Notes: a model not told the origin generated them from the letters alone. Shown: positions 20,898 through 56,105, counted from the stretch's first letter. The stretch is DNA of 64,000 nucleotides from Patescibacteria group bacterium (GCA_025999275.1 AP024680.1:318393-382392); one strand, 5' to 3'. A program made the numbers and translations.

Positions 20898-20915
20898 CAA
20901 GGTCCGTCCTTGTCA
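20895..20915. terminator. GC-rich palindromic hairpin, family B (TGACAAGGTCCGTCCTTGTCA)
   Basis: 8-bp stem with a 5-nt loop overlapping the TGA stop, followed by a T-rich run. The identical 21-mer recurs at 33039. Confidence 0.55.
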
Positions 20916-20963
20916 TTATTTCTCTTCTTGTTAAGCTTTCCAAAATTTAGTAATCTTAAGTTA

Positions 20964-21623
20964 ATGCTTGAAGTTGTCGATGTTAGCAAAACTTACGGTG
21001 ATATAGTGGCTTTAAATAAGATTTCTTTTAGTGCTGAGGCTGGTGAATTGGTTTTTATCACTGGAAAATCAGGATCTGGCAAGACAACTCTTCTTAAGCT
21101 AATTTTGAGGGAAATTTTTCCTGACAGTGGAAAGATTTTATTTGAGGGTAAAGATATATTTTCTCTTAAAGGCAGTGAAATTCCTTTATATAGGCAAAAG
21201 ATTGGCGTAGTGTTTCAGGATTTTAAGATTTTAACAGAGAAAACAGTACGAGAAAATGTAGAAATTGCTTTGGCTGTAGTAGGTGTTCCTTCTTCTGAAT
21301 GGAATATTCGTGTTGATGAAGTTCTAAAAATGACTGGCCTTGACAGACGAAGTGAGCTTTTTCCTCTACAACTTTCCGGAGGAGAATTGCAAAGAGTTTC
21401 TCTAGCCCGTGCCTTGGTAGTCAACCCCCAAATTATTCTTGCAGATGAGCCGACTGGCAATCTTGACTGGGAAACGTCGGAGGGTATTATGGAATTATTC
21501 AAGAAAGTGGTTGAATCAGGCAAACTGGTCTTGATGGCAACACATAATCTAGCTTTGGTAGATAAGTATTCAAAGGTTGAAAAAGGAAGTAAAATGAAAA
21601 CTAAGGTTATTAATCTTTCTTAA
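20964..21623 (+). CDS. ftsE: Cell division ATP-binding protein FtsE
   Basis: ABC ATPase with Walker A GKSGSGKTT, signature LSGGELQRV and Walker B ILADEPTGNLD. Start set at the Met at 20964 (MLEVVDVSK). Confidence 0.9.
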   Translation: MLEVVDVSKTYGDIVALNKISFSAEAGELVFITGKSGSGKTTLLKLILREIFPDSGKILFEGKDIFSLKGSEIPLYRQKIGVVFQDFKILTEKTVRENVEIALAVVGVPSSEWNIRVDEVLKMTGLDRRSELFPLQLSGGELQRVSLARALVVNPQIILADEPTGNLDWETSEGIMELFKKVVESGKLVLMATHNLALVDKYSKVEKGSKMKTKVINLS

Positions 21624-21625
21624 AA

Positions 21626-22543
21626 ATGGGAATTCATTTTAAGACAGCTATAAGAAATATAATTAGGTCTCCTTTTCAGGCTTTTGCTGCTGTTTTTGTT
21701 TTGGCAATTACTTTCTTTATTGTTAGTATACTTGTTGCTCTTCTTTACTCTTCAAGTCAAGTTTTACATTATTTTGAAACAAGGCCACAAGTTATAGCTT
21801 TTTTGAAGTCAGATGTTTCAGCCGGTGATATTTATAATCTTCAGCAAAAGTTGAGTTCTGATACTCGAGTCAAGGAGGTTCGTTATGTTTCAAAAGAAGA
21901 TGCTTTGAAAATTTACAAGGAGGCAACTTCCGAGACTCCTCTTTTAGCTGAATTAGTTAGCCCTACAGCTTTTCCTGCCAGTCTTGAATTGTCGCTTGTT
22001 AAGCTTGACTACGCTCAAGAATTAATTAGTGAGTTAAAGCAAGAGAAACTAGTTGATCAGGTTGGCTTTACTGCAAACTTGGGGGGAGAGGCAACTTTGA
22101 ACAATACCATAAACAGACTCAAATCCATAGTAAATTATTTGAGATTAGGAGGCGGAATTTTTACGGCTTTCTTGGCTGTCACTTCCCTTATGGTTCTTTT
22201 GGTGGTTATAAGTATGAGATTAATGGCAAGGAAGCAGGAGGTGGATATTCTTAATTTGATTGGTGCAACACCACTTTTTGTTGCAAGTCCTGTTATTTTA
22301 GAGGCGTTTATTTATGTTTTAGTTGGAGTTTTTATTGGTTGGCTTTTGGCTTTTGTTTTGGTTTTATATTTTGCTCCGTCTTTGATTTCTTACTTTGGGC
22401 AGATCGAAATTTTACCAAAAGATACATTTACTCTTTTTAAAATGTCGTTATTAGTTTTGTTTGCAGAATGGCTGGCTGGGTTTGTTTTGGCTTTTTTGGG
22501 GAGCTTCCTTGCAATATCTCGTTTATCCAAAAAGAAGGCCTAG
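21626..22543 (+). CDS. ftsX: Cell division permease FtsX
   Basis: Four-TM FtsX topology with a large first periplasmic loop. Immediately follows ftsE. Confidence 0.8.
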   Translation: MGIHFKTAIRNIIRSPFQAFAAVFVLAITFFIVSILVALLYSSSQVLHYFETRPQVIAFLKSDVSAGDIYNLQQKLSSDTRVKEVRYVSKEDALKIYKEATSETPLLAELVSPTAFPASLELSLVKLDYAQELISELKQEKLVDQVGFTANLGGEATLNNTINRLKSIVNYLRLGGGIFTAFLAVTSLMVLLVVISMRLMARKQEVDILNLIGATPLFVASPVILEAFIYVLVGVFIGWLLAFVLVLYFAPSLISYFGQIEILPKDTFTLFKMSLLVLFAEWLAGFVLAFLGSFLAISRLSKKKA

Positions 22544-22553
22544 TTGTTAAAAA

Positions 22554-23729
22554 ATGCGCTTGCTTTTAAAAAAATTTTTCTTTTTTGTTTTATTAATCTT
22601 TCTTTTTGTGTTTTTATTTTCTTCTTTTACTGTTAGAGCGCAAGATCAGGATATTTCTCGTGACCAAAAATTAAAGGAATTGCAAGATCAAATTGCAAAG
22701 TATGAAGAGGAATTGAGTCGTCTTCGCCAACAATCAGCAACCTTAAGCAATCAAATAGCCCAGTATGACGCTCAGATTGCCCTTGCTACTTTGCAGATTG
22801 AGGAGACACAAAGAAAAATAGAGCTTTTAGAGGGTAGGATTGGACAGCTCGAAAATTCTTTAGACGCTTTAACTAAGGCTTTCTCATCACGTGCGGCTGA
22901 GACTTACAAAATGGTTAAGCTGGGCGAGCCGATTTTGTTTTTAATCTCATCTCCTGATCTTTCAACGGCGGTTTCAAGATTTCATTATCTAAAACTTATT
23001 CAACGATATGATCAAGAGCTTTTGATTAAACTTCAAGCAACCCAAACAACATATCAAGATCAAAAAACGGATCAGGAGTCTTTACAGAAACAGCTTGAAA
23101 AGCAAAAGGCCAATCTTGATGCTCAAAAGGCAGCTAAGGCTAATTTGTTGGCAGCGAGTAAAAATGATGAGAGGTATTACCAAAGACTTTTAACTCAAGC
23201 CAGAAGTCAGCTTGCAGCTTTGAGGCGTTATGTCACAAGTCAGGGTGGAGCAACTATCTTGCAAAATCAAACCAAGTGCGATGGTTGGGGTTGCTATTAT
23301 AACCAGCGAGATAGCCAGTGGGGGACAATTGGCATAGGTGGATCTTCTTATTCAGTGGCTGAATATGGATGTCTTATTTCTTCAATTGCAATGATTAGTA
23401 GCCATTATGGCAAAAAGCTGACGCCAGGTGATATTGCTATTAATCCGAATTATTTTGTCCCCGGAACTGGTTATATTTACCACTCAGCAGAAGGAATGCC
23501 TTTTACAATTAGCACGGCTTCAGTATCACAACTTGATAGTCTTCTTTCTAAAGGCCCTGTAATTGCAGGTCTTTACTCTGGGCCTGATCATTTTATTGTT
23601 ATTTTAAGAAAAGAAGGGAACGATTATATAATGCATGATCCTTTTATGCCTGATGGGGCAAATCGCCGATTGACTGAAAAATATAAAGTTTCAGATATCA
23701 CAAGTCTAAGATTGGTAAGCTTTAATTGA
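22554..23729 (+). CDS. Coiled-coil protein with C-terminal C39-like cysteine peptidase domain (putative FtsEX-regulated peptidoglycan hydrolase, PcsB/EnvC analog)
   Basis: Signal/TM at the N-terminus, ~200 aa of heptad-rich coiled coil (LKELQDQIAKYEEELSRLRQQ), then a C-terminal domain with EYGCLISSIAMISSHYG (Cys) and GPDHFIVILRKEG (His). Position right after ftsEX supports the role. Confidence 0.6.
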   Translation: MRLLLKKFFFFVLLIFLFVFLFSSFTVRAQDQDISRDQKLKELQDQIAKYEEELSRLRQQSATLSNQIAQYDAQIALATLQIEETQRKIELLEGRIGQLENSLDALTKAFSSRAAETYKMVKLGEPILFLISSPDLSTAVSRFHYLKLIQRYDQELLIKLQATQTTYQDQKTDQESLQKQLEKQKANLDAQKAAKANLLAASKNDERYYQRLLTQARSQLAALRRYVTSQGGATILQNQTKCDGWGCYYNQRDSQWGTIGIGGSSYSVAEYGCLISSIAMISSHYGKKLTPGDIAINPNYFVPGTGYIYHSAEGMPFTISTASVSQLDSLLSKGPVIAGLYSGPDHFIVILRKEGNDYIMHDPFMPDGANRRLTEKYKVSDITSLRLVSFN

Positions 23730-23841: not shown

Positions 23842-25074
23842 ATGGCCCAAGTTTCAAAAGCTTCTAAGAATGTTTATCTAGAGATTTTGTGTACAAGTTT
23901 TATTTCGTTCCTAAAAATTAAAAAAGATAGTTTTTTCATTTCATATAAAAATTATTTTGCTCGATTCTTTATTTTTGTATTTATTTCTTTTGCTGTCTTA
24001 TTTTTGTCTTTTTCGGAAGTTGCCGCTCAAGTGGTGATTAATGAGTTTCATCCCAATTCACCTGAGTGGGTAGAATTTTACAATAGTAGTTCTGACGTCA
24101 TAAATCTTTCTGATTTTTGGTTTGATGATGACGATAATTTTGTTTCTGATATAGGTACTTCTTCTAAAAGAAGATTGTCTGGTTTATTGAGTGGTGGCGC
24201 AACTTGCTATTTGGATCTTAATAGTTATTTAAATGATAATGGAGACAAGCCAACTATTTTTAGCTTGTCGGGGGAGATAATTGATAGTTATTCTTATATA
24301 TCATCTTTAGGAGATAAAACTTACTCTAGAGATCCTGATGGTGGTGAATGGGCTTCGGCTGGTATGGATCCGACAAAATCTCTGACCAATTGTTTGTCTC
24401 TGGCCACTCCAACTCCTACTCAAACTCCCACTCCAACACCAGTTTCCACTTCATCCTCTAATTCTTCTAGTTCAAAAGCAACGGTTAAAATAAATAGTGC
24501 CAAAGATCAAAACGGAAACGAACTTTTAGGATCGTTGAAAATTTACATCGACGGAAATTATACTGGCAATTATGCTCCAGAGACTTATACATTTTGTAGT
24601 GATTGTAAGTGTGGTAGTAATAATGTCCCTTGTGGTTTTGGCAATCACACTTTTAAAGTTGAAAAGACTGGTTATAATTCTTGGACAAAAACAGCGGAAA
24701 TAAGTGCTGATAATAATTATGAATTTGATCCAGTTTTGACTTTAGTATCTTCTAGTCCTTCTCCAACTTTGAAGGCAACTCCCACCGCAACTGCTTCAGC
24801 AACGCCAAAATCAACAACTTTTAATCTTTCAACTTCTAGCGAATCAGCGCTTCTTGCTGAGGATGTTTTTTCTAATAATAAAGGGGTTTTGGGTGCTTTT
24901 TCTGAAAGCAAGACATCAACTCCTGTTCCCAACCAATCTGATTCAAAGTTTAAATTAGCAGCTCTGTTTTTTATTATTTCGGGTCTTTCTTTTTTGGGAT
25001 CGGCCGTTTATGCTTATCTAAAGAAAAAGAAAAATGCAAAACCAGATGAGTCTAAAAGTGAAGAAGCTGGTTAA
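23842..25074 (+). CDS. Lamin-tail-domain (LTD) cell-surface protein with PEGA-like domain and C-terminal membrane anchor
   Basis: VVINEFHPNSPEWVEFYNSSSDVINLSDFWFDDDD matches the LTD consensus. A TPTPT linker follows. The Cys-rich YTGNYAPETYTF...FKVEKTGYNSWTKTAEI region looks PEGA-like. C-terminal TM with a KKKK tail. Confidence 0.6.
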   Translation: MAQVSKASKNVYLEILCTSFISFLKIKKDSFFISYKNYFARFFIFVFISFAVLFLSFSEVAAQVVINEFHPNSPEWVEFYNSSSDVINLSDFWFDDDDNFVSDIGTSSKRRLSGLLSGGATCYLDLNSYLNDNGDKPTIFSLSGEIIDSYSYISSLGDKTYSRDPDGGEWASAGMDPTKSLTNCLSLATPTPTQTPTPTPVSTSSSNSSSSKATVKINSAKDQNGNELLGSLKIYIDGNYTGNYAPETYTFCSDCKCGSNNVPCGFGNHTFKVEKTGYNSWTKTAEISADNNYEFDPVLTLVSSSPSPTLKATPTATASATPKSTTFNLSTSSESALLAEDVFSNNKGVLGAFSESKTSTPVPNQSDSKFKLAALFFIISGLSFLGSAVYAYLKKKKNAKPDESKSEEAG

Positions 25075-25444
25075 ACTTTGGGCGCCGCCTGTTTTTTGGA
25101 TGGCGCTTATTTTTTTTCTTAGCTCTCGTCCTACACTCAAAACGACTCAAATTTACTGGCAGGATTTTATTATCAAAAAAACAGCTCATTTTATTGAGTA
25201 TGCAATTTTGGCTTTTCTTTATCTCCGTGGCTTTTTGGGAAGCGGTTTTCCAAAAAAGAAGTCGTTTATTTTTGCACTTGTTCTTTGTATTTTGTATGCC
25301 GCTTCTGATGAATTTCACCAGTCTTTTATTCCCGGTCGGGAGCCAAGAATAAGGGATGTGATAATTGATACCATTGGCGCTTTTTCATCTTTGTACTATT
25401 TTGTCTTTTATAGAAAAAAGCCCTTTAAGTATTTGCAATCTTAA
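25034..25444 (+). CDS. VanZ-like family membrane protein
   Basis: DEFHQSFIPGREPRIRDVIIDTIGA matches the VanZ signature. Overlaps the end of the LTD gene, and the exact start is uncertain. Confidence 0.6.
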   Translation: MQNQMSLKVKKLVKLWAPPVFWMALIFFLSSRPTLKTTQIYWQDFIIKKTAHFIEYAILAFLYLRGFLGSGFPKKKSFIFALVLCILYAASDEFHQSFIPGREPRIRDVIIDTIGAFSSLYYFVFYRKKPFKYLQS

Positions 25445-25468
25445 ATCAATCTGCACTATTATTAATTA

Positions 25469-26098
25469 ATGGCAAGGGAATCTGCTATTCAAAAAGAAAA
25501 GAAAAAGGTTTCTTCCTATCTTAATATTGCCGGTGAGGTCTTTATTCTTTTTTCAATCTTAATTTTGTTTTTCACCTATGGGCCGGTGACAAAAGAGGAG
25601 GTTTCCTATCAGATAAGACAAGTAGTTAAAAACAAAGAAGTCAAAGAAATCCAGCCTGTCAACACTCAATTTTCAATCGTTATTCCAAAACTTGAAGTTT
25701 CAGCGCCTGTATTTGCTTCTGTTGATCCTTTTAATCCAAGCGAATACTTGCCCGTCTTAAAAAAGGGAGTTGCTCATTCAAAATATTCCTCTTTTCCTGA
25801 CAGTTTTGGCAACACTTACCTTTTTGCCCATTCAACCGACGCTTTTTATAATGTTGGCAAATATAACGCTGTTTTTTATCTTCTTGGAAAATTAGAAAAG
25901 GGAGATGAGATAGATGTTTATTATAAGGACCAAAAATATGTTTATAGAGTATCTGATAAGAAAGTTGTTGAACCGAAGGACGTGTTTTATTTGGTCAATT
26001 CTGGAAAGGGAAATATTTTAACTCTTCAGACTTGCTATCCGCCAGGAACAACGTTAAAGCGTTTGATTGTTATTGCTAATCAGGAAGTTGGGATATAG
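25469..26098 (+). CDS. Sortase-family transpeptidase
   Basis: N-terminal TM, conserved His (YLFAHSTD) and the catalytic TLQTC (TLxTC) motif near the C-terminus. Confidence 0.75.
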   Translation: MARESAIQKEKKKVSSYLNIAGEVFILFSILILFFTYGPVTKEEVSYQIRQVVKNKEVKEIQPVNTQFSIVIPKLEVSAPVFASVDPFNPSEYLPVLKKGVAHSKYSSFPDSFGNTYLFAHSTDAFYNVGKYNAVFYLLGKLEKGDEIDVYYKDQKYVYRVSDKKVVEPKDVFYLVNSGKGNILTLQTCYPPGTTLKRLIVIANQEVGI

Positions 26099-26265
26099 TA
26101 AAATTGAACAGGCTTTTTTAGCTAAATATTGACTTTTCCTATAGCAAGTGTTATAAAGCATTTGGGTAGCCTAGCCTTATATAGATGCACAAAAATAAAA
26201 GACGGCTAATTGCCTTAATATCTGCCTTTTCGGTTTTAATTAACTCGCTCTCCTTTTAGTCTCCT

Positions 26266-29200
26266 TTGGTTGTTTTAGCTCAAGAAACACAGGAAGGGAC
26301 TCCTGTAGTTGAAAATCAGCCGCAACAGACAGAAACATCTACACCCCAGCCAACAGAATCAGTAGCTGAGACAAGTACTCCAAATCCTAGTGTTAGCCCT
26401 TCTTTAGAGCCAAGTCCTGCACCTAGCCTAGAGCCTTCTCCAATAAACAATCTTCAAACTGAAACCCCTACACCAACAGCAACACCAGCTCAGGAAGTTT
26501 TGGGAGCAGATACAAATACCACCACTCCTTTTCCCTCAACGCCGGCAAGCGAAGACAAGAATAAAGATGCTCATATCAATGCTGTGGTTTTAAGTGATGT
26601 TAGCGCCTCAAGTATTGATGAAGCTGATTTATCCTATCTTGAAAGTGCCACTAGCGCCACTTTGAGAACTGATAAATTTGACTATTCGCCGACTGATGCT
26701 GTTGTTATAACTGGCGAAGGATTTGCTCCAAATACCGAGTATGAATTGGTCATTACTTCTGGTACTGGTAATTTTAGATTTTCTGATCGTGTCACCTCTG
26801 ATGAATCAGGTGGGCTTTTCTATACCTATCAACTCGACGGCACCTACAGGCCGGAGTATAAGGCGGAAGTGTTTGATTTGTTGGGTGGTGTAGCTGCTTC
26901 GGTCAATTTTTCAGATAGTGATAAAGTTCGTCTTTGCCATCGTACCAAATCTGATAGTAACCCATATGTTTACTTAGAGGTGAATATTAAAAATAACGGA
27001 GATTTGAAAGGTGGCCACCTTAATCATACCGGACCAATATGGTATCCTGGCATTCAAGGCAAATGGGGAGATATTATCCCTCCCTATTCCAGTGGTAATT
27101 TTAACTACTCTGGGATGAACTGGGATGCTAATGGTCAAGCTATTTGGAACAATGGTTGTAAGTTGCAAATAGCTTGTCAAGAAGGTCCCAGTTGGACAAG
27201 TGATGTGATCTCTTTTAATCAAGGTAAGAATAAAGATGGTTCTGATGTACCAGAAGAAAGATCTGATCCCTATAATGCATTAGGAAAACCTGACAGTTTT
27301 GGTAATGATGTTAATTTTGTTAGTCTTGGTAAAGGTGGCTCCATTGTTCTGGTTTTTCTTGGATGGGTGAAAGATAAAGAAGGTAATGATCTTTCCTTCC
27401 ATGAGGTTACTTGGGGTAGAGAAAACTATCCTGAAGAGAAAGCAAAAGTAGAGGTAAGCCAAGATGGCGATAGTTGGTATGGAGATTGGATTGTAAGCAG
27501 TAAAGCTACAAATGGTATTGGTTATATTGATTTTTCTTCAACTAGGTTGTCTTGGGTAAAATATGTAAGGATTACCGATACTACAGATTTTAGTCTTCAT
27601 ACTAATGATGCTGATGGATATGATCTCGATGCGTTAGATGCGGTTTATCAGCTGTGTAGTTTACCTTCTCCTTCACCGACTTTATCTCCTTCTCCTACTC
27701 CAGCTCCTTATTGTGGAGATGGCGTCAAGAATGGTCAAGAACAATGCGATGGGTCTGATGGGGTTGGTCAAAATCAATTTTGTACCAAAAATTGCAAACT
27801 TATTCCAATTTATGATGGATTTCATTCTTGTCCCGCTGGAACGGTTAAAAGTCAAAGTCCTGTTTTATCAAAGACAATATCCGCAACCGATTCTGATGGA
27901 GAAACTTTTAACCTGACTGCTGGAGGAAAATATCTTTTTGAAGTTAGTGGTGTTTACAGCTATGATAAGAGCAATTCTGCTAAATGGGCCGATGCTGCCT
28001 ATGCTACTGACAATAATTGGTCTAGCGCTAGATCTGATATTGGTATTTGGGAAACAAATAGAGGTGTAACTTCTCTACTTGCTGATTTTGGTAAGGGGGT
28101 GGGTGTTGTTGAGTGGGATGATAATCAAGTATATAATTCTGACCATACTTATCAAAAGTATTATTCTCCAACTACCAATTCAGTTAAGTTCTTAATAAGC
28201 GATTGGTACGATGAATGGTACAGCTCGCCATATAATAATCAATCAGCAATGTCTGATAATTCTGGTAGCTTAAGTTTAGATGTTTATGAATGCCAACCTG
28301 TATCAGAAGTTACTGTCTGTAAATATGACAATGAAGAACACCCTTTGAGTGATTGGCGAGTTTATCTTTTAGGAGATAAAGTAGGAAATACTATTTCTGT
28401 TCCTTCTAATGGCACTGTAGTTAACGCTGGTTCTTATCCAAATGATAATTATGTTCTTTTGGCCTCGGGTACTTATAACTATGGGAATGATCGGATGAAT
28501 GCTGATGCGGCTAATTCTTATCGTTATGTTGGACTTCCTTGCAGTGGGCCAACTGATGGGTGGGTGAGTGGAGAGTCTTCTTGTATGGGAAATTATCTTT
28601 CTTTGAATTTTTCAACTAGCGGGGGGCCAACAGCTCCCGGATGGGGAGATTACTACAACCCCGATCATATATATGCAAAATTTTTTGCCGGCGGCGGTTT
28701 GAATTTAAAAGTTTGGGATAGGTGTAGTAGTAATCAAGTGGAAGGATGTTATGGTGATAATGAAGGATCTTTAAGTCTTGATATTTATAAAGGTTTTGTT
28801 GGCGATACAGGGGAAAATGGATGTGTAACATTTACTAACGTTCCTTATGGGGCATATCAATTAGGTGAAATTTTACAGGAAGGATGGCAGAAAGTCAGTG
28901 GTTCGGGTGAGGTAGTAATTGACAGTGATGAGGAAAATTTTGATTTAATTAATAATGAATTGCCTAAAAAAGGCAATCTAAAAGTTTCCAAAGTCGTTGA
29001 CTGGAAAAATGTTACGCCAGACACTTCTAAAACTTTTGAAATTTGTATAACAGGACCTTCTTATCCTAATCCTGATTGTAAAACAGCTGATTATGATGGT
29101 GAAACACTTGAATGGAAAGATATTTTAGCTGGTGATTATACTGTAACAGAAACCACTCCAACAGGCGGTTGGATAGTAACAGGGTCAGGTCAAACTGTAA

Positions 29201-32200
29201 CTGTTAATAAAGATCAGACTTCTTCTGTTGAAATAAAGAATGAAGCAAATTCGATTATCATTAAAGCCTATAAGGTGGTTTGTGATAGCGAGCAATATTT
29301 GCCAAACTGGGGAAACCATGGAAGCGTGATTGGCGCTAATACAGCTCAAAGTTTTGTTAATAATTCTCAAGGCCATTGCCGGCTTGAGGATGGATGGAAA
29401 TTCCAATATGCACCTAAGGGTTCTGGTAGTAATGGTGCATTTCAAACCAACACACAGGAGTTGGGAACTCCTTGGACAACTTTCGGTCCTACTGTTGGCG
29501 GCGAAGCAGTAGCTGTAATAAATGATATTTCTAATTTTGATGGTCGAATTGAAACGAGAGAAGTTTTTAAAGACAATACCTATATTCCTTTTTCAAACAG
29601 TAGTAATAATGTAAGTGCGGAATTTTACTGCACTGGTGATACGTATAATTATGACAACTGGGAGTGGATAAATAACCCGCAATACGGCAGCACCTACTAT
29701 TGTGTTGCTTTTAATGCCAAGAAAAGCACTGTAATTTCAGGGAGGAAGTTTAATGATTTAAATTACAATGGTAAAGATGATGAAGAGCCTGGCCTTGAAA
29801 ACTGGAAAATTTTGGCGGCTCAAAAGGTAGATGAAGTTAATGTTTCGGCAAAAGATATGCCAACAGTTTCTTCAAATATTCCTTTGATCTCTGGTCAAGA
29901 GTATCTTTTAAGAGTTTCCGGGACTTATCAAGCCGGAGATAATATTACAGCCGATGCAAAATACTCAGTTCGTAGCCCAAATACTTACTGGACTGATTAT
30001 GTTCAAAATTATCAATCTTATGGACCAACTCTTTTAGATTTGCAAATTAATAATAATTCTTATGACTGGGGAAGTTATAATCCAAATCATGTTTATTGGT
30101 TAATTCTTTCTGGTGGTGGTTCGCCAATTAATTTTAGGCTTAATGATATTTATCCATCAAATAATTCAGGATCTTTAAATGTTAAAATTTATAAAGTCAT
30201 TTCCGAAACAACTACCGCAAACGATGGAAGTTATCAGCTAACTTTAACCAGTGATCCTGGATCAGATATAATTGTGGCTGAAGAAACTCAAAGCGGTTAT
30301 ATGCAAATCACTCCAAATGGCGAAAATTTTGGTTACTGCAATGTCACTTCATACCAAGAAAATAAATGTAATTTCGGTAATGCTTTAGCTTATGGTTCAA
30401 TTTATGGTTATAAGTATGATGAAGATAGAGAAACTGGACTTGGTGGCTGGACTATATTTATAGATGATAATAATAATGGTATTTTGGATCAGGGTGAGAA
30501 AGACGCTACCACAAGTGATGATGAAAAAAACAATGGCTATTATGAGTTTAATGGTCTAACGGCAGGGACATATTCTGTTTGTGAGGTAGAGCAAGAAGGC
30601 TGGCAGAGGATGTATCCCCTTGGTTCTAACTGTCAATCTGTGACAATTACTTCTGGATCTAAATTTGAGGTTGATTTCCAAAACAGGAAAGTTGTTTTGG
30701 GGCTTAGTCTTACAAAGTCAAACGATGCCGCAACTGCCTTGTCTGCTGGAAGCCAAGTTAATTATACTTTAAAGATTAAAAATACAGGTAATCAGAAATT
30801 GACTGGAGTTATTATCAAAGATGCTCCTGCTGGTGGATTTACTTATGTTGATGATAGTGGCATTCTTGATAGCAATCCGATTAATCCTACTCAATTGGGG
30901 GGCTATCTTGACTGGTATATTGGAGATCTTGATGCAGGAGAGGAAAAAGTGTTGTCTTACAAGATGTCAACTAATAGTGGCATGATCTCTGGCATTTATC
31001 CAAATGTTGCCATAGCGACTGGAATTTATACACCGTCTGAATATCAACCTGAAGAGGTGGTTACAAATAGATCCTTGGTAGTTGAAGCATTGGCTGTTGA
31101 TGGTGACTCTGGGGAAGAAAGGGTTGAAAGCAATGCCGGTGTTCCCGTTAACTCTCAGGTTGAAATTAAGGCTCCTTTGGCTTACTCAACTGGAGTTGGG
31201 GGAACAGGGGGGCAAGTTTTGGGCGCATCAACTGAGGCCGGTGAAGTTTTGCCTGCTGCTGGTTCTGATAGCCGAATAGTTTTGTTTGCTCTCTTGGGTC
31301 TTATTTTGGGAGCTTTGCTTAAAGTTTCAGGATTAGCTCTAGAGAGAAACTGGGTAGATTATAGGAAATTAAAGAAAAATATTAAAAGAATGGGTAGTTT
31401 TATTGCAGTCTTGATTTTCCTTCTTGGTTTTGCCCCTTCTGCTAGGGCTTTCTCTGACTATGTTTATATAACTCAACTGCCAGCTTATCTAAACAAGGAA
31501 GATTTCAAAATTTCCTATTCCGCTCTTTCTGAAAACCCAATTTCTGCTCAGTTTTATATTAGGAAAGACGGGGATTCAAGCTGGAGGACTCTTGGTTCTT
31601 CTTTGTCTGGAGCCTCGGGATATGTGCAAGTTCATGGCGGGGATATTTACAATGGTGATGGTAAATATTTCTTCAAGGTGGTTATAAATAGCGGGTCGGC
31701 TGAAGATCAAACTTCAACCATAATTGACAGACAGTCTCCTGATCCAGTTCGTGATTATTGGAAAGAGAAGTTAGGGGATGGACATTACAAGCTTCATTGG
31801 AGAAATCCTGACAATGAGGATTTTGATAAGGTAATAATTTATCGCTCGGATAGTACCAATTTTACGGCTGATTCCTCAACTGAGATAGCCACAGTTTGGG
31901 GGTCAAGGAATTCTGAAATGACTTATGAGAATGCCGCAGTAGCAGGAAAAGAATACTATTTTGCCATTAGGGCAATTGATAAGGCGGGAAATGCATCAAG
32001 CGTTGTTGCTGATCCTGAGACACAAGTTTCAGCAGGTGCTGTGTTAGGTGAGTCAACGGTGGCAACCGGTTCTCCTAAAGCAGAGGTGGTCAAGATTTTG
32101 CCAAAAGAAGAAAAGAAGGGTGAGGTTTTAGGCGAGGAGAATAGAGAGGAGGAGCCAGTTTCTTCTCCAACACCTGAAGTTCAAGAACAATCAGGCGGTG

Positions 32201-32319
32201 TTTTGGGCCAGGCAATAAAATTTGCCAAAGATAGAACAAAAATTACTCTTCTTATCGCTCTTGGCCTTGGGATTGTTTCTTATTACCTGTCTCGTCTTTG
32301 GAAAAAGAATAAGAATTAA
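26266..32319 (+). CDS. Giant (2017-aa ORF) multi-domain surface adhesin; possibly two in-frame fused genes
   Basis: Thr/Pro-rich N-terminus, a Myxococcus-type Cys-rich repeat (CGDGVKNGQEQCDGSDG), several SdrD-B/CnaB-like Ca-binding folds (DDNNNGILDQGEKD, GTYSVCEV), a DUF11-like repeat (VNYTLKIKNTGNQKLTGVII), and a fibronectin-III-like module near the end. An internal LPAAG + hydrophobic + basic segment at 31248..31389 is followed by a second signal-peptide-like Met at 31390. The track start is TTG; an in-frame signal peptide ORF lies upstream at 26185, separated by a TAG. Confidence 0.7.
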   Translation: MVVLAQETQEGTPVVENQPQQTETSTPQPTESVAETSTPNPSVSPSLEPSPAPSLEPSPINNLQTETPTPTATPAQEVLGADTNTTTPFPSTPASEDKNKDAHINAVVLSDVSASSIDEADLSYLESATSATLRTDKFDYSPTDAVVITGEGFAPNTEYELVITSGTGNFRFSDRVTSDESGGLFYTYQLDGTYRPEYKAEVFDLLGGVAASVNFSDSDKVRLCHRTKSDSNPYVYLEVNIKNNGDLKGGHLNHTGPIWYPGIQGKWGDIIPPYSSGNFNYSGMNWDANGQAIWNNGCKLQIACQEGPSWTSDVISFNQGKNKDGSDVPEERSDPYNALGKPDSFGNDVNFVSLGKGGSIVLVFLGWVKDKEGNDLSFHEVTWGRENYPEEKAKVEVSQDGDSWYGDWIVSSKATNGIGYIDFSSTRLSWVKYVRITDTTDFSLHTNDADGYDLDALDAVYQLCSLPSPSPTLSPSPTPAPYCGDGVKNGQEQCDGSDGVGQNQFCTKNCKLIPIYDGFHSCPAGTVKSQSPVLSKTISATDSDGETFNLTAGGKYLFEVSGVYSYDKSNSAKWADAAYATDNNWSSARSDIGIWETNRGVTSLLADFGKGVGVVEWDDNQVYNSDHTYQKYYSPTTNSVKFLISDWYDEWYSSPYNNQSAMSDNSGSLSLDVYECQPVSEVTVCKYDNEEHPLSDWRVYLLGDKVGNTISVPSNGTVVNAGSYPNDNYVLLASGTYNYGNDRMNADAANSYRYVGLPCSGPTDGWVSGESSCMGNYLSLNFSTSGGPTAPGWGDYYNPDHIYAKFFAGGGLNLKVWDRCSSNQVEGCYGDNEGSLSLDIYKGFVGDTGENGCVTFTNVPYGAYQLGEILQEGWQKVSGSGEVVIDSDEENFDLINNELPKKGNLKVSKVVDWKNVTPDTSKTFEICITGPSYPNPDCKTADYDGETLEWKDILAGDYTVTETTPTGGWIVTGSGQTVTVNKDQTSSVEIKNEANSIIIKAYKVVCDSEQYLPNWGNHGSVIGANTAQSFVNNSQGHCRLEDGWKFQYAPKGSGSNGAFQTNTQELGTPWTTFGPTVGGEAVAVINDISNFDGRIETREVFKDNTYIPFSNSSNNVSAEFYCTGDTYNYDNWEWINNPQYGSTYYCVAFNAKKSTVISGRKFNDLNYNGKDDEEPGLENWKILAAQKVDEVNVSAKDMPTVSSNIPLISGQEYLLRVSGTYQAGDNITADAKYSVRSPNTYWTDYVQNYQSYGPTLLDLQINNNSYDWGSYNPNHVYWLILSGGGSPINFRLNDIYPSNNSGSLNVKIYKVISETTTANDGSYQLTLTSDPGSDIIVAEETQSGYMQITPNGENFGYCNVTSYQENKCNFGNALAYGSIYGYKYDEDRETGLGGWTIFIDDNNNGILDQGEKDATTSDDEKNNGYYEFNGLTAGTYSVCEVEQEGWQRMYPLGSNCQSVTITSGSKFEVDFQNRKVVLGLSLTKSNDAATALSAGSQVNYTLKIKNTGNQKLTGVIIKDAPAGGFTYVDDSGILDSNPINPTQLGGYLDWYIGDLDAGEEKVLSYKMSTNSGMISGIYPNVAIATGIYTPSEYQPEEVVTNRSLVVEALAVDGDSGEERVESNAGVPVNSQVEIKAPLAYSTGVGGTGGQVLGASTEAGEVLPAAGSDSRIVLFALLGLILGALLKVSGLALERNWVDYRKLKKNIKRMGSFIAVLIFLLGFAPSARAFSDYVYITQLPAYLNKEDFKISYSALSENPISAQFYIRKDGDSSWRTLGSSLSGASGYVQVHGGDIYNGDGKYFFKVVINSGSAEDQTSTIIDRQSPDPVRDYWKEKLGDGHYKLHWRNPDNEDFDKVIIYRSDSTNFTADSSTEIATVWGSRNSEMTYENAAVAGKEYYFAIRAIDKAGNASSVVADPETQVSAGAVLGESTVATGSPKAEVVKILPKEEKKGEVLGEENREEEPVSSPTPEVQEQSGGVLGQAIKFAKDRTKITLLIALGLGIVSYYLSRLWKKNKN

Positions 32320-33041: not shown

Positions 33042-33059
33042 CAAGGTCCGTCCTTGTCA
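33039..33059. terminator. GC-rich palindromic hairpin, family B (bidirectional position)
   Basis: TGACAAGGTCCGTCCTTGTCA incorporates the pyrH TGA and sits between convergent pyrH and the GT-C gene. Confidence 0.55.
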
Positions 33060-34538
33060 GTTGATAATTTGATATAAAAGTAAGGAATCTGTTGGGTTTT
33101 CTTTCCATGGAGGCTTGGGAATCTCTTTTATTAAGTTTAGATTGGGATTTTGAACAAGGTTTGATTTGTGGATTACAAAATAAACAGGTTTTTCTTTAAG
33201 TTTTTCATAAACATAAGATTCGATTTGTGAGCTACTATACCAAACTTCAATATTTTTGTTTTTGCCGATATAAATCTCAAGTCCGTCAGGCAATGTTCCA
33301 AAGGCACCAGCTGTAACAACTAAAATTTTTTGATCTTTTGCTTTCTCTTTTAGAAAATTAGCCATTTCTTTTATTCCATAACCTGCTGTCCATCCTTCAA
33401 AGTACCCATCTTTTTCTTTTTTAGGTAGATTGGCTTGCCATGGTTTTGTAATAAGCTGATAATCAAAAATTATTGCTGGGATTAAGACCAGAGTGGTTAG
33501 AGTGCTAAAAACAGCCTTTCTGTTTTTGGCTATTTTTTCTGATATTTCTGCAAAAGACCAACTGGCAAGAAAGATGAATGTAACTATACTTGGTAGAATA
33601 TATCTTGCCGTGTAGGTTTTAAGAAGAGCAGTAAGTATAATGAAAGGAATAGCTCCCCAAAGGAAAATTATTATGTTTTCCTTTTTCTTTTTGTAAAGGG
33701 AGAGAAAAATTGCAAATATAAAAGTTAAGAAAACAGGCCAAGTCATCAATTTGGTAAGAAAAACAAAACCTTCTTTGGTGTTGCCTATAAATGGATCAAG
33801 TGGTTTCTCCCAGAGTCGCGATATGGGGAAATGATAATACTCATTTCTTTTTCCAAGTTGTTTGAAATAGGGGCTAATTCTAAGTGAATTGTATAGGCAC
33901 AATCCTATTATTGCTGATAAAGTAAGTCCCAAAATTGATTTTGTTAGTTTCTTTTTATTTTTAAAGTCGGCTTTTATTAAAGCTAGTGGAAGTAGAAAGA
34001 AATTAAACATTCCGGGTGTTTTGGTTAGTATTGAAGCTCCTAAGATTAGTCCTAGAAGTATTATATTTTTGGCTGACGGTTTTTCTACCGTCTCAAGAGC
34101 AAGAATTAGTGACCAAAATGAAAAAGCAGCAAGCATCGAATCGGTTAATGCCATTCGATCAAAAAATACCAAAAATGGAGTAAAGGTAAAAAATAGAGCA
34201 GCAACCAAAGCTGTTTTTGGTTGGAAATACCTTTTGGAGAGATAGTATGCTCCATAAAGTGTGAGAAGGCTTATTAAGATTGAGACTATTCTTCCTGCCA
34301 GAAGAGGATCGGATATAATTTTTAAGCTTGGCACAACCAACCACATAAATAGTGGAGTTTTACCATCGACAAGTGGAATAAATAAATTAATTTTGGGATT
34401 TTCGATGATTTTTTGCGCCCAATGGATATAGATTGCCTCATCACAAAATACTGGCTGTAGATTGAGGTTGTAGGTTCTGATCAGAAGGTAAAATGTGATG
34501 ATTAAAATGGCAGATAAAAAAAGTTTTTTGTGCTTCAT
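33057..34538 (-). CDS. GT-C-fold glycosyltransferase (ArnT/PMT family, GT39/GT83-like)
   Basis: Polytopic, with the N-terminal loop motif VFCDEAIYIHWAQKI (DE..Y) characteristic of ArnT/PMT-type lipid-linked-sugar transferases. 493 aa. Confidence 0.6.
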   Translation of the reverse strand: MKHKKLFLSAILIITFYLLIRTYNLNLQPVFCDEAIYIHWAQKIIENPKINLFIPLVDGKTPLFMWLVVPSLKIISDPLLAGRIVSILISLLTLYGAYYLSKRYFQPKTALVAALFFTFTPFLVFFDRMALTDSMLAAFSFWSLILALETVEKPSAKNIILLGLILGASILTKTPGMFNFFLLPLALIKADFKNKKKLTKSILGLTLSAIIGLCLYNSLRISPYFKQLGKRNEYYHFPISRLWEKPLDPFIGNTKEGFVFLTKLMTWPVFLTFIFAIFLSLYKKKKENIIIFLWGAIPFIILTALLKTYTARYILPSIVTFIFLASWSFAEISEKIAKNRKAVFSTLTTLVLIPAIIFDYQLITKPWQANLPKKEKDGYFEGWTAGYGIKEMANFLKEKAKDQKILVVTAGAFGTLPDGLEIYIGKNKNIEVWYSSSQIESYVYEKLKEKPVYFVIHKSNLVQNPNLNLIKEIPKPPWKENPTDSLLLYQIIN

Positions 34539-34830: not shown

Positions 34831-35826
34831 ATGTCTATCTATAATTTTTTAGTTCATCTTTTTATACCTCATTATTCCAATAATCAAAAACCAAAGCTTT
34901 TACATCCTTCGACTTTGTTGGTTTTTGCTTTTATCTTGTCTTTTTTGCAGGTCTTATTGCATTTTCTTCCCAAAGCTGGAGTTCGGGTTTTGGGGTATGC
35001 GGCTAATATTTCAGTTGATGAGGTTTTGCGTTTAACAAATCAAAAAAGGCAGGAAGCAGGTTTACCTCCTCTTAAACTTGATCCGGTTTTAAATCAAGCT
35101 GCCAAAAACAAGGGGGAGGACATGCTTGCCAAAGATTATTGGGCTCATGTTTCTCCTGACGGAGTTGAACCTTGGAAGTTTTTTCTTGATGCTGGTTATA
35201 AATACCGGTATGCAGGTGAAAATTTAGCGCGTGATTTTTCAAACGCCGCTTCGGCTGTCGATGCTTGGATGGCTTCACCTTCACACCGAGAAAACCTACT
35301 TTCGCCAAAATATGAGGATGTTGGTTTGGCTGTAGTTGAGGGTGATTTGGGTGGGGTTGATACAACTATAATAGTTCAGCTTTTTGGGACAAGGTTGGCA
35401 GGGAGTGGAGAGGTTAGTCCAGTTGCTAAGAAAGAAGAGCGGACTCTATTGTCTGCAAAGGCAAAGGTTCAAGAGCAAGAAATAAAACCAACCCCTATAC
35501 CTGATGAATATAAAAAATCAGAAATTGAGCTTTCCCCGATTCCTGTGTTTGAGGTTGGTAAACCAGTAGTGCTTGAGGCGGGTAGCGCCTTGGGTGAAAA
35601 CAATTTTGCAACACCACTTCCTGCATTTTTAATTTCTCCATTTGGTTTATTTAAGAGTCTGTCTTTGTATCTAACACTGGTATTGATTCTGGTATTTACA
35701 ATTGATGCAATAATAGTATCAAGGAAGAATATTACAAGGGTCTCGGGTCGTTCTTTTGCTCATATTTCTTTTTTGGGAATGATTTTGGCAGTGATTTTAA
35801 TTCTTAGGGCAGGAAAAATATTATGA
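34831..35826 (+). CDS. CAP/SCP/PR-1-like (YkwD-type) secreted domain protein with C-terminal membrane segments
   Basis: The CAP domain reads RLTNQKRQEAGLPPLKLDPVLNQAAKNKGEDMLAKDYWAHVSPDG...ASPSHRENLLSPKYEDVGLAV. N-terminal TM, and two C-terminal TMs. Confidence 0.7.
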   Translation: MSIYNFLVHLFIPHYSNNQKPKLLHPSTLLVFAFILSFLQVLLHFLPKAGVRVLGYAANISVDEVLRLTNQKRQEAGLPPLKLDPVLNQAAKNKGEDMLAKDYWAHVSPDGVEPWKFFLDAGYKYRYAGENLARDFSNAASAVDAWMASPSHRENLLSPKYEDVGLAVVEGDLGGVDTTIIVQLFGTRLAGSGEVSPVAKKEERTLLSAKAKVQEQEIKPTPIPDEYKKSEIELSPIPVFEVGKPVVLEAGSALGENNFATPLPAFLISPFGLFKSLSLYLTLVLILVFTIDAIIVSRKNITRVSGRSFAHISFLGMILAVILILRAGKIL

Positions 35827-55433: not shown

Positions 55434-56105
55434 ATGAATTCAAAGAGGTTTTTGCTTTTCTTTTTACCTTTGGTTTTTCTCTTTCTTGCAGCATTTGCTG
55501 TCTGGCAGAATAAAAAGCTTTTGTATCAATTTGGTTGTTGCAAACAGATAAATTATTCAGGCCAGCTTGATTTAGCATCAAGAAGAGGTGTTTTTGATGG
55601 CAAAGAAGTATCTGTGCCTGATGAGGTGTTTAAAGAAGATAAGTATTATGCTCAGGTTTTGGGAGCAACAAGTGGAGAAAAAAGAATTGAGGTAAGCATT
55701 AATGAACAAAAATTAAGAGCTTGGGAGGGTGATAAACTCTTTTTAGAAACACCTGTTTCTACAGGTCTTCGCTTTTGGCCAACACCTAAAGGTGAGTTTA
55801 GAATCTGGATTAAATTAAGAGCAACAAAGATGGAGGGGGGAGTGGGAAAATATTATTACAATCTTCCCAATGTTCCCTATGTAATGTTCTTTGAGAATGA
55901 TGAAATTCCTGGATGGCGAGGTTATGGCATCCACGGAGCTTATTGGCATAATGACTTTGGTACTCCCAGAAGTCATGGCTGTGTAAATTTGCCAGTTGAT
56001 GTAGCAAGACAGCTTTATTATTGGGCAGACCCTGTTTTGCCGGAAGGTAAGACTTCTGTTATAACTACAACTGAAAATCAGGGAACGAAAATAATTATAT
56101 ATTGA
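55434..56105 (+). CDS. L,D-transpeptidase (YkuD fold)
   Basis: Signal/TM at the N-terminus, and a catalytic His/Cys region with YGIHGAYW followed by SHGCVNLP. Confidence 0.75.
   Translation: MNSKRFLLFFLPLVFLFLAAFAVWQNKKLLYQFGCCKQINYSGQLDLASRRGVFDGKEVSVPDEVFKEDKYYAQVLGATSGEKRIEVSINEQKLRAWEGDKLFLETPVSTGLRFWPTPKGEFRIWIKLRATKMEGGVGKYYYNLPNVPYVMFFENDEIPGWRGYGIHGAYWHNDFGTPRSHGCVNLPVDVARQLYYWADPVLPEGKTSVITTTENQGTKIIIY

What the first reader, a model, noticed from the sequence alone, without database searches (positions are those of the whole stretch)
23842..32319. Recurrent x-V-L-G-(A/E/Q) motif upstream of the C-terminal membrane anchors of three surface proteins next to a sortase
The tripeptide VLG recurs in the same context in three places. 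In the LTD protein it appears as KGVLGAFSESKTST, ~25 aa before its C-terminal TM and KKKK tail. In the giant ORF part 1 it appears as GGQVLGASTEAGEVLPAAG, directly before the internal hydrophobic/basic segment. In part 2 it appears as AGAVLGESTV, GEVLGEENRE and SGGVLGQAIKF, the last ~15 aa before the final TM. It also appears just after the N-terminal signal regions, as AQEVLGADTNT in the adhesin and GVRVLGYAAN in the CAP-domain protein. Five or more VLG occurrences concentrated at processing-relevant positions is far more than chance; I estimate about 0.8 expected per 2000 aa. With a sortase (TLQTC) encoded between these genes, this could be a non-canonical sorting/cleavage motif (VLG-[AE]-[SD]-T) rather than, or in addition to, LPxTG.
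Basis: inference. Interest (0 to 1): 0.55.

Follow-up and report, generated by a model that had tools for sequence, protein, structure and literature searches.

The report
Conserved VLG box before sortase anchors
The recurring V-L-G is real: it is the core of a short conserved "pre-anchor box" that this uncultured Woesebacteria lineage places just outside the C-terminal membrane anchor of its surface proteins, always in front of the classical sortase motif where one exists, so it extends the LPxTG signal and does not replace it.

Summary
The window comes from a Candidatus Woesebacteria (Microgenomates, CPR) genome.

The genes form a conserved cluster: ftsEX, a coiled-coil peptidase, an LTD/PT-stalk protein, VanZ, sortase, a giant adhesin, a tandem-FnIII protein ("part 2") and a CAP protein.

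- **Conservation:** in 96 related loci (957 kb), all 32 distinct sortase signals carry [VI]LG within 16 residues upstream. A signal here means pentapeptide, hydrophobic segment and basic tail. They fall in at least four unrelated substrate families.
- **Motif:** the consensus is G-Q-V-L-G-A-S-T-E-LPATG. VLG is more conserved than the pentapeptide, which varies (LPATG, LPAAG, MAGTG, LASTG).
- **Box-only proteins:** the LTD protein and part 2 carry the box in a disordered stalk 7-66 residues before a plain membrane anchor, with no pentapeptide at the anchor.
- **Enrichment:** VLG occurs at 7.6 per 1000 residues in pre-anchor zones against 0.56 elsewhere in the same proteins.
- **Instances that are not the box:** aa 1477, the third VLG of part 2, and probably the CAP one.

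My best reading is a bipartite sorting signal in which the box is a second recognition element for a divergent sortase. This is inferred and not shown. A shedding or maturation protease site is the main rival.

I found no description of the box in papers or curated models. I rate it a new variant of a known kind.

The parts
23842..25074 (+). LTD + PEGA surface protein with signal peptide, PT-rich linker, box-only C-terminal anchor
   Evidence: Pfam LTD and PEGA. In relatives the gene at the same cluster position either matches the window LTD protein or is a PT-stalk protein.
24880..24909 (+). VLG box of the LTD protein (KGVLGAFSES), 20 aa upstream of the TM; no pentapeptide
   Evidence: Proteins at this cluster position carry [VI]LG (22 of 28) or the variant [ILVM]VAGA[ST]T 4-25 aa before KK+TM.
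24946..25014 (+). C-terminal TM of the LTD protein, followed by a KKKK tail
   Evidence: Hydropathy scan.
25034..25444 (+). VanZ-family membrane protein, conserved between the stalk protein and the sortase
   Evidence: Pfam and NCBIfam VanZ. Synteny, and fusion to the sortase in L012.
25469..26098 (+). Sortase with N-terminal TM, TLQTC active site, invariant His/Cys/Arg; below the cut-off of every class A-F model
   Evidence: Pfam Sortase 84.9 bits; NCBIfam class C/D/E/F models 24-61 bits against cut-offs of 160-166. Alignment A3. Best PDB relatives E ~1e-11.
26186..31386 (+). Giant adhesin (part 1): signal peptide interrupted by TAG at 26257-26259, SpaA-like and DUF11 domains, complete sorting signal
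26497..26505 (+). N-terminal VLG (AQEVLGADTNT) after a PT-rich stretch; kept only in the closest adhesin orthologues
   Evidence: No general N-terminal enrichment.
31210..31236 (+). VLG box of the adhesin sorting signal (GQVLGASTE)
   Evidence: V, L and G are invariant in 12 orthologue tails and present in all 32 distinct signals.
31249..31263 (+). Sortase pentapeptide LPAAG (P1 Ala in place of Thr)
   Evidence: LPATG in most relatives; LPAAG in 2 of the 136 best representative hits.
31267..31389 (+). Hydrophobic segment plus basic tail (ERNWVDYRKLKKNIKR) of the internal sorting signal
31390..31449 (+). Second, internal signal peptide (MGSFIAVLIFLLGFAPSARA) that starts part 2 with no intervening stop
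   Evidence: Homologues are mostly stand-alone ~300-aa proteins.
31459..32034 (+). Part 2: tandem FnIII-like domains
   Evidence: AF2 pLDDT >90 over most of this stretch. Foldseek best matches are FnIII tandems.
32041..32049 (+). Part 2 box 1 (GAVLGEST) at the end of the folded domains; semi-conserved (V[LQ]G[AE]ST)
32098..32133 (+). Part 2 near-invariant LP (LPKEE) followed by box 2 (GEVLGEE); G245 and L248 invariant in 30 homologues, in a disordered linker
   Evidence: Alignment A1. pLDDT <50 for residues 220-280.
32200..32208 (+). Third VLG of part 2 (GGVLGQAIKF): not conserved in the family, and adjoins the conserved juxtamembrane FAKDRTK helix
32239..32292 (+). C-terminal TM of part 2, followed by KKNKN
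30694..30702 (+). VLG at aa 1477 (KVVLGLSL), at the start of the DUF11 domain; not the box
34987..34995 (+). CAP protein VLG (RVLGYAAN): family-invariant [VI]LG[YF][AS] 8-10 aa after the N-terminal TM; probably a signal-peptidase site
55656..55664 (+). Box-like AQVLGATSGE in the stalk of an N-terminally anchored L,D-transpeptidase, directly before the YkuD domain
   Evidence: No orthologues were available to test conservation.

Best explanation
**What is shown.** VLG is the invariant core of a short linear motif with consensus G-[QE]-[VI]-L-G-[AE]-[SA]-T-E, which I call the VLG box. Woesebacteria and Microgenomates place it in the flexible stalk just outside the C-terminal membrane anchor of surface proteins. 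In sortase substrates it precedes an LPxTG-like pentapeptide by 0-8 residues, most often exactly one. The full signal is therefore box, pentapeptide, hydrophobic segment and basic tail. In this window the giant adhesin (part 1) has that full signal: GQVLGASTE-AGEV-LPAAG, then a TM, then a basic tail. The LTD protein and part 2 have the box but no pentapeptide at the anchor.

**What is inferred.** The box is a second recognition element for the cluster's divergent sortase, or for a sortase/VanZ complex. This would let the enzyme accept relaxed pentapeptides of the form [LMF][PA]x[TAS]G while staying specific. Cleavage and transfer would still occur at the pentapeptide. The box would stay in the mature protein next to the attachment point. 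Box-only proteins would stay membrane-anchored. Their boxes are more relaxed in sequence and may recruit them to the same site, or may be relics of former full signals.
For: 1. All 32 distinct pentapeptide + hydrophobic + basic signals in 96 loci have [VI]LG within 16 aa upstream. The chance expectation is about 1.3% per signal, so four independent families all positive would be about 3e-8.
2. The signals belong to unrelated substrate families:
   - DUF11 adhesins;
   - small MAGTG/MAKTG proteins;
   - 'AVN.C' proteins ending in VLG-LA[ST]TG;
   - LAATG and FAGTG fragments.
3. V, L and G are invariant, while the pentapeptide varies: LPATG, LPAAG, LPGTG, LPASG, MAGTG, MAKTG, LASTG, LATTG. That is the pattern expected if the box carries part of the specificity.
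4. MAGTG and LPATG substrates lie next to the same sortase gene.
5. Spacing is exactly one residue in 121 of the 136 best representative proteins.
6. 662 clusters at 50% identity match the tail profile at E <= 1e-3.
7. Boxes coupled to a pentapeptide are strictly VLG. Box-only proteins tolerate VL[PSA], VMG, TLG or xVAG.
8. The sortase is divergent and falls below every class A-F cut-off.
9. There is precedent for recognition beyond the pentapeptide. Residues N- and C-terminal to the motif are critical for Bacillus anthracis SrtB activity (PMC11987632).
Against: - No enzyme-substrate evidence of any kind exists; the recognition role is pure inference.
- Spacing can stretch to 8 residues, and the box can be tandemly duplicated. 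That fits a free-standing module better than a rigid extension of the binding cleft.
- The box also occurs without a pentapeptide in the LTD/PT-stalk family and in part 2. It sometimes occurs near N-termini: the adhesin N-terminus, an L,D-transpeptidase stalk and a sortase paralogue stalk. A pure sortase-exosite model does not explain these cases.
- All loci were chosen through this gene cluster. Orthologues are over-counted, and genomes without the sortase could not be examined.
Confidence: 0.45

Rival explanations
1. The box is an independent processing site, for shedding or maturation, cut by an envelope protease. Cleavage would release surface proteins from their anchor whether that anchor is a sortase link or a TM helix. 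V-L-G|A fits the small-residue -3/-1 rule of type I signal peptidases.
For: - The box lies between anchor and functional domains in every context. That includes box-only proteins and the few N-terminal cases.
- It sits in disordered linkers.
- It can be tandemly repeated just upstream of the pentapeptide. Known analogue (partly from my own knowledge): C. difficile sortase substrates such as CD2831 are released from the surface by ZmpI/PPEP-1 cleavage; that paper appeared in a title-and-abstract search only and was not read (PMC4591827).
- SipW-type signal peptidases lie within 10 kb of the sortase in 6 of 96 loci.
- The CAP [VI]LG[YF] sits at a typical signal-peptidase position.
Against: - No protease is conserved in the cluster, and there is no SipW-type gene in this 64-kb window.
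- Ordinary signal peptides here end in AxA-like sites.
- This model does not explain why the box is strictly invariant only where a pentapeptide follows, nor the preferred one-residue spacing.
Confidence: 0.25
2. The box is a passive structural or wall-embedded stalk element, or a punctuation or glycosylation mark at the end of PT-rich linkers. No enzyme reads its sequence.
For: - It regularly follows PT-rich linkers.
- It lies in low-confidence, disordered regions.
- A GT39-like membrane glycosyltransferase gene lies beside the cluster in the window and in L001.
Against: - Passive spacers are not expected to keep three residues invariant across hundreds of otherwise divergent proteins.
- The GT39-like gene is not a conserved neighbour: it was found in 3 ORFs of the data set.
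Confidence: 0.15
3. One reading: VLG-[AE]-[SD]-T is itself the sortase cleavage site and replaces LPxTG in the LTD protein and in part 2.
For: - Box-only proteins are encoded in the same operon as the sortase.
- In some stalk proteins the variant [ILVM]VAGA[ST]T sits 4-8 aa before the TM, where a pentapeptide would be.
- Some part 2 homologues have VLPAETE or VLPSETE in place of VLGEE.
Against: - Where sortase signals are recognisable, the pentapeptide is always present as well and is itself conserved.
- In most box-only proteins the box lies 12-66 aa from the TM, far from where pentapeptides normally sit.
- The box has no T-G or A-G scissile pair.
Confidence: 0.08
4. Chance recurrence of a common tripeptide in low-complexity linkers.
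For: - VLG is over-represented window-wide: 23 observed against 9 expected.
- Within the window alone, P is only 0.005 against the empirical rate.
Against: - Cross-genome invariance.
- 13- to 46-fold positional enrichment, with permuted-tripeptide controls.
- 32 of 32 signals carry it.
Confidence: 0.01

Closest known systems
LPXTG cell-wall sorting signal and sortase (TIGR01167 / PF00746; Gram-positive paradigm)
   Same: Pentapeptide, hydrophobic segment and basic tail at the C-terminus of a secreted adhesin, next to a sortase gene with a TLxTC active site. TIGR01167 scores an orthologue tail above its cut-off.
   Different: - An invariant VLG box precedes every pentapeptide. TIGR01167 starts at LPATG and does not cover the box.
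- The pentapeptide is relaxed: LPAAG here, MAGTG and LASTG in neighbours.
- The sortase matches no class A-F model at its cut-off.
- The host is a CPR bacterium.
Recognition beyond the pentapeptide in class B sortase (Bacillus anthracis SrtB)
   Same: [quoted passage not shown]
   Different: That case concerns flanking residues of a single substrate. It is not a separate, sometimes duplicated motif found across many substrate families and in proteins without a pentapeptide.
ZmpI/PPEP-1 cleavage of C. difficile sortase substrates such as CD2831
   Same: Protease-mediated release of sortase-anchored surface proteins (abstract of PMC4591827). That the Pro-Pro sites are short motifs in the linker just upstream of the sorting signal, sometimes in several copies, is from my own knowledge and was not checked in the paper.
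   Different: Different sequence (Pro-Pro sites) and a known dedicated metalloprotease. No PPEP-like gene was seen here.
Pilin motif and sorting signal in class C sortase pilus clusters
   Same: A sortase gene is clustered with two or three surface proteins that carry extra conserved short motifs. The adhesin has a SpaA-type fold domain. Part 2 has a near-invariant hydrophobic-x-hydrophobic-LP(K) element.
   Different: The VLG box has no lysine, and the Lys after LP in part 2 is not invariant. The sortase scores far below the class C cut-off.
Type I signal peptidase -3/-1 (AxA) cleavage rule
   Same: V at -3 and G at -1 fit the rule. The CAP [VI]LG[YF] lies at a typical distance after an N-terminal hydrophobic core.
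   Different: Most boxes lie upstream of C-terminal anchors, or far from any N-terminal hydrophobic region. Classical signal peptidase does not act there.

Membership tests
LPXTG-type sortase sorting signal (adhesin, part 1) | LPXTG-like pentapeptide | tested here: met
   LPAAG at aa 1662-1666 (P1 Ala is atypical). Orthologues have LPATG, LPGTG or LPASG.
LPXTG-type sortase sorting signal (adhesin, part 1) | Hydrophobic segment followed by a positively charged tail directly after the pentapeptide | tested here: met
   SDSRIVLFALLGLILGALLKVSGLAL, then ERNWVDYRKLKKNIKR.
LPXTG-type sortase sorting signal (adhesin, part 1) | N-terminal secretion signal | tested here: inconclusive
   The signal peptide MHKNKRRLIALISAFSVLINSLSF is cut off from the ORF by an in-frame TAG. 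The L017 orthologue has W at that codon.
LPXTG-type sortase sorting signal (adhesin, part 1) | Match to the curated anchor model TIGR01167 | tested here: not met
   The window tail gives no hit at E <= 10. The L011 orthologue tail scores 20.5 bits against a cut-off of 15.9.
LPXTG-type sortase sorting signal (adhesin, part 1) | Sortase encoded in the genome or neighbourhood | tested here: met
   The sortase gene lies directly upstream, and this order is kept in most related loci that extend far enough upstream.
LPXTG-type sortase sorting signal (adhesin, part 1) | Cleavage at the pentapeptide and transfer to the cell wall | not testable with these tools
   Needs biochemistry or mass spectrometry.
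LPXTG-type sortase sorting signal (LTD protein and part 2) | LPXTG-like pentapeptide within a few residues of the C-terminal TM | tested here: not met
   None in the window proteins or in most homologues. Part 2 has LPKEE about 45 aa from the TM (LPKTG in the L005 part 2, VPETG in P0036), which is not at the anchor.
Sortase family (Pfam PF04203) | Sortase domain with catalytic His, Cys (TLxTC) and Arg | tested here: met
   84.9 bits against a cut-off of 26.6. H121, C189 and R198 are invariant in A3.
Sortase classes A-F (NCBIfam) | Score above a class-specific cut-off | tested here: not met
   Best scores: class C 60.9 against 160, D 58.9 against 165, E 45.5 against 160, F 23.8 against 166.
Class C sortase pilus system | Pilin motif with an invariant nucleophile Lys in the acceptor subunit | tested here: not met
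   The Lys after LP in part 2 is present in only about 10 of 26 aligned homologues.
PPEP-type release site | Pro-Pro cleavage motif and a PPEP metalloprotease | tested here: not met
   The box has no Pro-Pro. No such protease turned up among the cluster proteins scanned with Pfam and NCBIfam; other neighbouring genes were not scanned.
Type I signal peptidase site | Small residues at -3 and -1, 5-10 aa after an N-terminal hydrophobic core | tested here: inconclusive
   Both criteria hold for the CAP protein. Only the -3/-1 criterion holds for the C-terminal boxes.

The most novel reading that the evidence does not exclude
The VLG box is a docking tag shared by donor and acceptor proteins of a CPR sortase. 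The sortase cleaves the giant adhesin at LPA[AT]|G and ligates it to a box-bearing, membrane-anchored partner: the tandem-FnIII part 2 and/or the LTD stalk protein. The product would be a covalent, membrane-tethered surface fibre. This would be a minimal pilus-like assembly in a cell that may have little wall to anchor to. It would explain the invariant adhesin-part 2 gene order, their repeated fusion into one polyprotein carrying an internal sorting signal and a second signal peptide, and the near-invariant LP...G-x-VL-G element in the disordered stalk of part 2.
Probability: 0.12. Interest if true: 0.75.

Novelty: new variant of a known kind. Interest (0 to 1): 0.5.

Why it matters
- **Annotation.** Sortase signals are usually annotated from the pentapeptide alone. 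In this CPR lineage an upstream box is more conserved than LPxTG itself. Current models therefore miss real substrates: the window's LPAAG adhesin and the MAGTG proteins get no TIGR01167 hit.
- **Biology.** The box gives a simple sequence handle for listing the surface proteome of Microgenomates. These are uncultured, probably host-attached bacteria whose giant adhesins are thought to mediate that contact.
- **Enzymology.** If the box is an exosite, this sortase would be a natural example of long-range substrate recognition. It would also be a possible orthogonal tool for sortase ligation.
- **Regulation.** If the box is instead a protease site, it would mark a lineage-wide shedding mechanism.

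Tried and rejected
- **DNA-level repeat.** Codons vary at synonymous positions (GTT/GTG/GTA, TTG/TTA, all four Gly codons), so the conservation is at protein level.
- **Literature.** Searches for VLGAST, VLGASTELPATG, QVLGAS, VLGATT and VLGEST found nothing. VLGAAT matched one unrelated Streptomyces paper. Searches on CPR or Microgenomates sortases gave no motif description.
- **Homologue search with the DUF11 domain alone.** This was meant to give an unbiased sample of tails. It returned no hits and used the last such search.
- **Taxonomy of representative hits via cluster members.** No organism names were returned.
- **AF2 of the adhesin C-terminus.** The alignment was too shallow and mean pLDDT was 53, so nothing can be said about whether the box packs on the DUF11 domain.
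- **Tail-profile search with the word index.** It returned mostly short fragments. These were useful for seeing tandem boxes but not for estimating distribution.
- **C39-like peptidase upstream as the box protease.** Rejected. Its coiled-coil plus peptidase layout right after ftsEX looks like a PcsB/EnvC-type wall hydrolase, and the box lacks the Gly-Gly that C39 enzymes need (the enzyme requirement is from established knowledge).
- **The 157-aa two-TM protein (18813-19286).** It has a family-conserved VLG, but in a different context (LD.GR..L..VLG), so I did not count it as a box.


Full report
**Observation**

- LTD protein: VLG at aa 349, 20 aa before its C-terminal TM and KKKK tail.
- Giant ORF: VLG at aa 78, 1651, 1926, 1954 and 1979, plus an unlisted one at aa 1477.
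- CAP protein: VLG at aa 53.

Composition predicts 0.48 VLG per 1000 aa. Eight in 2758 aa gives P = 7e-5. Against the empirical rate in the window's other ORFs it gives only P = 0.005. VLG is generally over-represented in the window, with 23 observed against 9 expected. The window alone is suggestive. The case rests on comparison with other genomes.

**Identity of the genes**

Pfam and NCBIfam assign the genes as follows.
- 23842-25074: an LTD + PEGA surface protein.
- 25034-25444: a VanZ-family membrane protein.
- 25469-26098: a sortase. It scores 84.9 bits on the Pfam domain and has a TLQTC active site. It falls far below the cut-off of every class A-F model.
- 26266-32319: a giant ORF with SpaA-type and DUF11 domains.
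- 34831-35826: a CAP/YkwD protein.

The giant ORF is two proteins in one frame.
- Part 1 ends in GQVLGASTEAGEV-LPAAG-SDSRIVLFALLGLILGALLKVSGLAL-ERNWVDYRKLKKNIKR.
- A second signal peptide, MGSFIAVLIFLLGFAPSARA, follows directly and starts part 2.
- Homologues of part 2 are mostly stand-alone proteins of about 300 aa.
- AF2 gives two confident beta-sandwich domains, a disordered linker (residues 220-280, pLDDT <50) that holds the VLG motifs, and a juxtamembrane/TM helix.
- Foldseek identifies the two domains as a tandem of FnIII domains.

**Origin and synteny**

A genome scan with the part 2 family returned 15 loci. Most are titled Candidatus Woesebacteria or Microgenomates. They show a conserved cluster in this order: ftsE, ftsX, a coiled-coil + C39-like peptidase, the LTD/PT-stalk protein, VanZ, sortase, adhesin, part 2, CAP and a small 85-aa protein. 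Adhesin and part 2 are fused in several genomes and separate, with overlapping ends, in others.

**The motif in sortase substrates**

- All adhesin orthologues end in ...G-Q-VLG-A-S-T-E-(0-5 aa)-LP[AG][AT]G, then a TM and a basic tail. V, L and G are invariant, although the adhesins themselves are highly divergent.
- A metagenome scan with the sortase added 80 loci, for 957 kb in total.
- Across all 96 sequences I found 32 distinct signals of pentapeptide + hydrophobic segment + at least two K/R. All 32 have [VI]LG within 16 aa upstream.
- They fall in at least four unrelated families:
  - DUF11 adhesins, with LPATG, LPAAG, LPGTG or LPASG;
  - small secreted proteins ending in VLGAST-MAGTG or MAKTG, encoded next to the same sortase;
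  - 'AVN.C' proteins ending in VLG-LASTG or LATTG;
  - database fragments with LAATG or FAGTG, several with two or three tandem boxes, such as VLGASTGGQVLGASTDTLAATG.
- The box is therefore more conserved than the pentapeptide.
- A tail profile run against 1.84 billion representative proteins found 662 clusters at E <= 1e-3 and 158 at E <= 1e-10.
- Among the best 136, the spacing from box to pentapeptide is exactly one residue in 121. Sixteen are adhesin-part 2 fusions. LPAAG, the window's form, occurs twice.
- The curated LPXTG model TIGR01167 starts at LPATG and does not cover the box. It misses the window's LPAAG tail and the MAGTG proteins.

**The motif without a pentapeptide**

- In part 2, the middle VLG (GEVLGEE) lies in an invariant G-x-[VI]-L-[GPSA] element. 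G245 and L248 are invariant in 30 homologues. A near-invariant LP precedes it, in an otherwise variable, disordered linker.
- The first VLG (GAVLGEST) is semi-conserved.
- The third (GGVLGQA) is not conserved. It adjoins the FAKDRTK juxtamembrane helix.
- In the protein at the LTD position of the cluster, a PT-rich linker is followed by [EQ]-[VI]LG-x or the variant [ILVM]VAGA[ST]T. This lies 4-25 aa before KK + TM. Twenty-two of 28 members have [VI]LG.
- Other single-pass, C-terminally anchored families also have the box. Polytopic proteins do not.

**Positional statistics**

| Pattern | 70 aa before non-N-terminal TM anchors (per 1000) | Elsewhere in the same proteins (per 1000) |
|---|---|---|
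| VLG | 7.6 | 0.56 |
| [VI]LG[AEQ] | 4.67 | 0.10 |
| Permuted tripeptides | not enriched or only weakly enriched | |

Boxes with and without a pentapeptide share G at -2, Q/E at -1 and T at +3.

**What is not the box**

- aa 1477 lies at the start of the DUF11 domain.
- The CAP VLG is a family-invariant [VI]LG[YF][AS] 8-10 aa after the N-terminal hydrophobic core. It fits a normal signal-peptidase site.
- The zone after N-terminal anchors is not enriched overall.
- A box after the N-terminal PT-rich stretch is kept in the closest adhesin orthologues.
- A box-like AQVLGATSGE precedes the YkuD domain of an L,D-transpeptidase at 55434-56105.
- Codon usage shows the conservation is at protein level.

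**Mechanism**

Shown: a lineage-specific box accompanies every recognisable sortase signal and most plain C-terminal anchors.

Inferred, best reading at about 0.45: the box is a second recognition element of a bipartite sorting signal for this divergent sortase.
- The pentapeptide is relaxed while the box is invariant.
- Different pentapeptides sit next to one sortase gene.
- The spacing is preferentially one residue.
- The sequence constraint is stricter where a pentapeptide follows.
- There is a published precedent in SrtB (PMC11987632).

Main rival, at about 0.25: a shedding or maturation site.
- It explains the box-only and N-terminal cases better.
- It has a known analogue in the ZmpI/PPEP-1 protease that releases C. 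difficile sortase substrates (PMC4591827).
- It has a weak candidate enzyme in the SipW-type peptidases near the cluster in 6 of 96 loci.
- But no protease is conserved in the cluster.

**Novelty**

I found no paper or curated model that describes the box. It is a new variant of the sortase sorting signal. It is not a new kind of system.

**Limits**

- All comparative loci were retrieved through this gene cluster.
- Orthologues are not independent observations.
- My TM and gene calls are simple heuristics.
- Genomes lacking the sortase could not be examined.
- Nothing here shows cleavage or binding.

Noticed in passing
window 26186-26268: The adhesin's signal peptide (MHKNKRRLIALISAFSVLINSLSF) is separated from the long ORF by an in-frame TAG at 26257-26259. 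The orthologue in L017 has Trp there (TGG). It is therefore a nonsense mutation, a sequencing error or a pseudogene. The listed TTG start at 26266 would give a protein without a signal peptide.
   Followed up: partly
window 31249-31449; also L001, L002, L003, L005, L007, L023, L046: Adhesin and part 2 are fused into one polyprotein. An internal sorting signal (LPAAG + TM + basic tail) is followed directly by a second signal peptide. Sortase plus signal peptidase would cut this into two surface proteins. The fusion recurs in several genomes and in 16 of the 136 best representative hits. Other genomes keep two overlapping genes.
   Followed up: partly
window 25034-25444; L012 1906-2874: A VanZ-family membrane protein is conserved between the stalk protein and the sortase. 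In L012 it is fused to the sortase in one ORF, which suggests a functional link between VanZ and the sortase.
   Followed up: no
window 20910-23729: ftsE and ftsX are followed by a secreted coiled-coil protein with a C-terminal C39-like peptidase domain. This is the layout of PcsB/EnvC-type, FtsEX-controlled wall hydrolases, with a different catalytic domain. The arrangement is conserved upstream of the cluster.
   Followed up: no
window 32098-32112; L005 part 2; P0036: Part 2 has a near-invariant hydrophobic-x-hydrophobic-L-P element (LPKEE here) upstream of its invariant box. In L005 it reads LPKTG and in P0036 VPETG, an LPxTG-like motif about 40-60 aa from the TM. Its role is unexplained.
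   Followed up: partly
L002 207-1199, L034 1620-2708, L035, L046, L052, L060: Archaeal/SipW-type signal peptidase I genes lie within 10 kb of the sortase in 6 of 96 loci. One carries a TapA-like C-terminal domain. None was found in this window.
   Followed up: partly
window 18813-19286: A small two-TM protein family upstream of prfB has its own conserved ...LD.GR..L..VLG[EIV]..E motif. It was not counted as a VLG box.
   Followed up: partly
L090 7624-8313: A second, different sortase paralogue (TLITC) carries a box-like ILGESTT in its own stalk, between the N-terminal TM and the catalytic domain.
   Followed up: no
window 1-64000: GC skew is positive in nearly every 2-kb bin and the cumulative skew rises almost monotonically. 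Most long ORFs are on the + strand, which indicates strong strand asymmetry. A lower-GC stretch (0.28-0.30) spans about 42-50 kb.
   Followed up: no
window 33057-34538 (-): A 493-aa polytopic protein that I labelled GT39-like (PMT/ArnT-type glycosyltransferase) from its sequence alone, without a family search. It lies between pyrH and the CAP gene, beside the surface-protein cluster. The only homologue seen among the first 15 loci is in the closest relative, L001.
   Followed up: no
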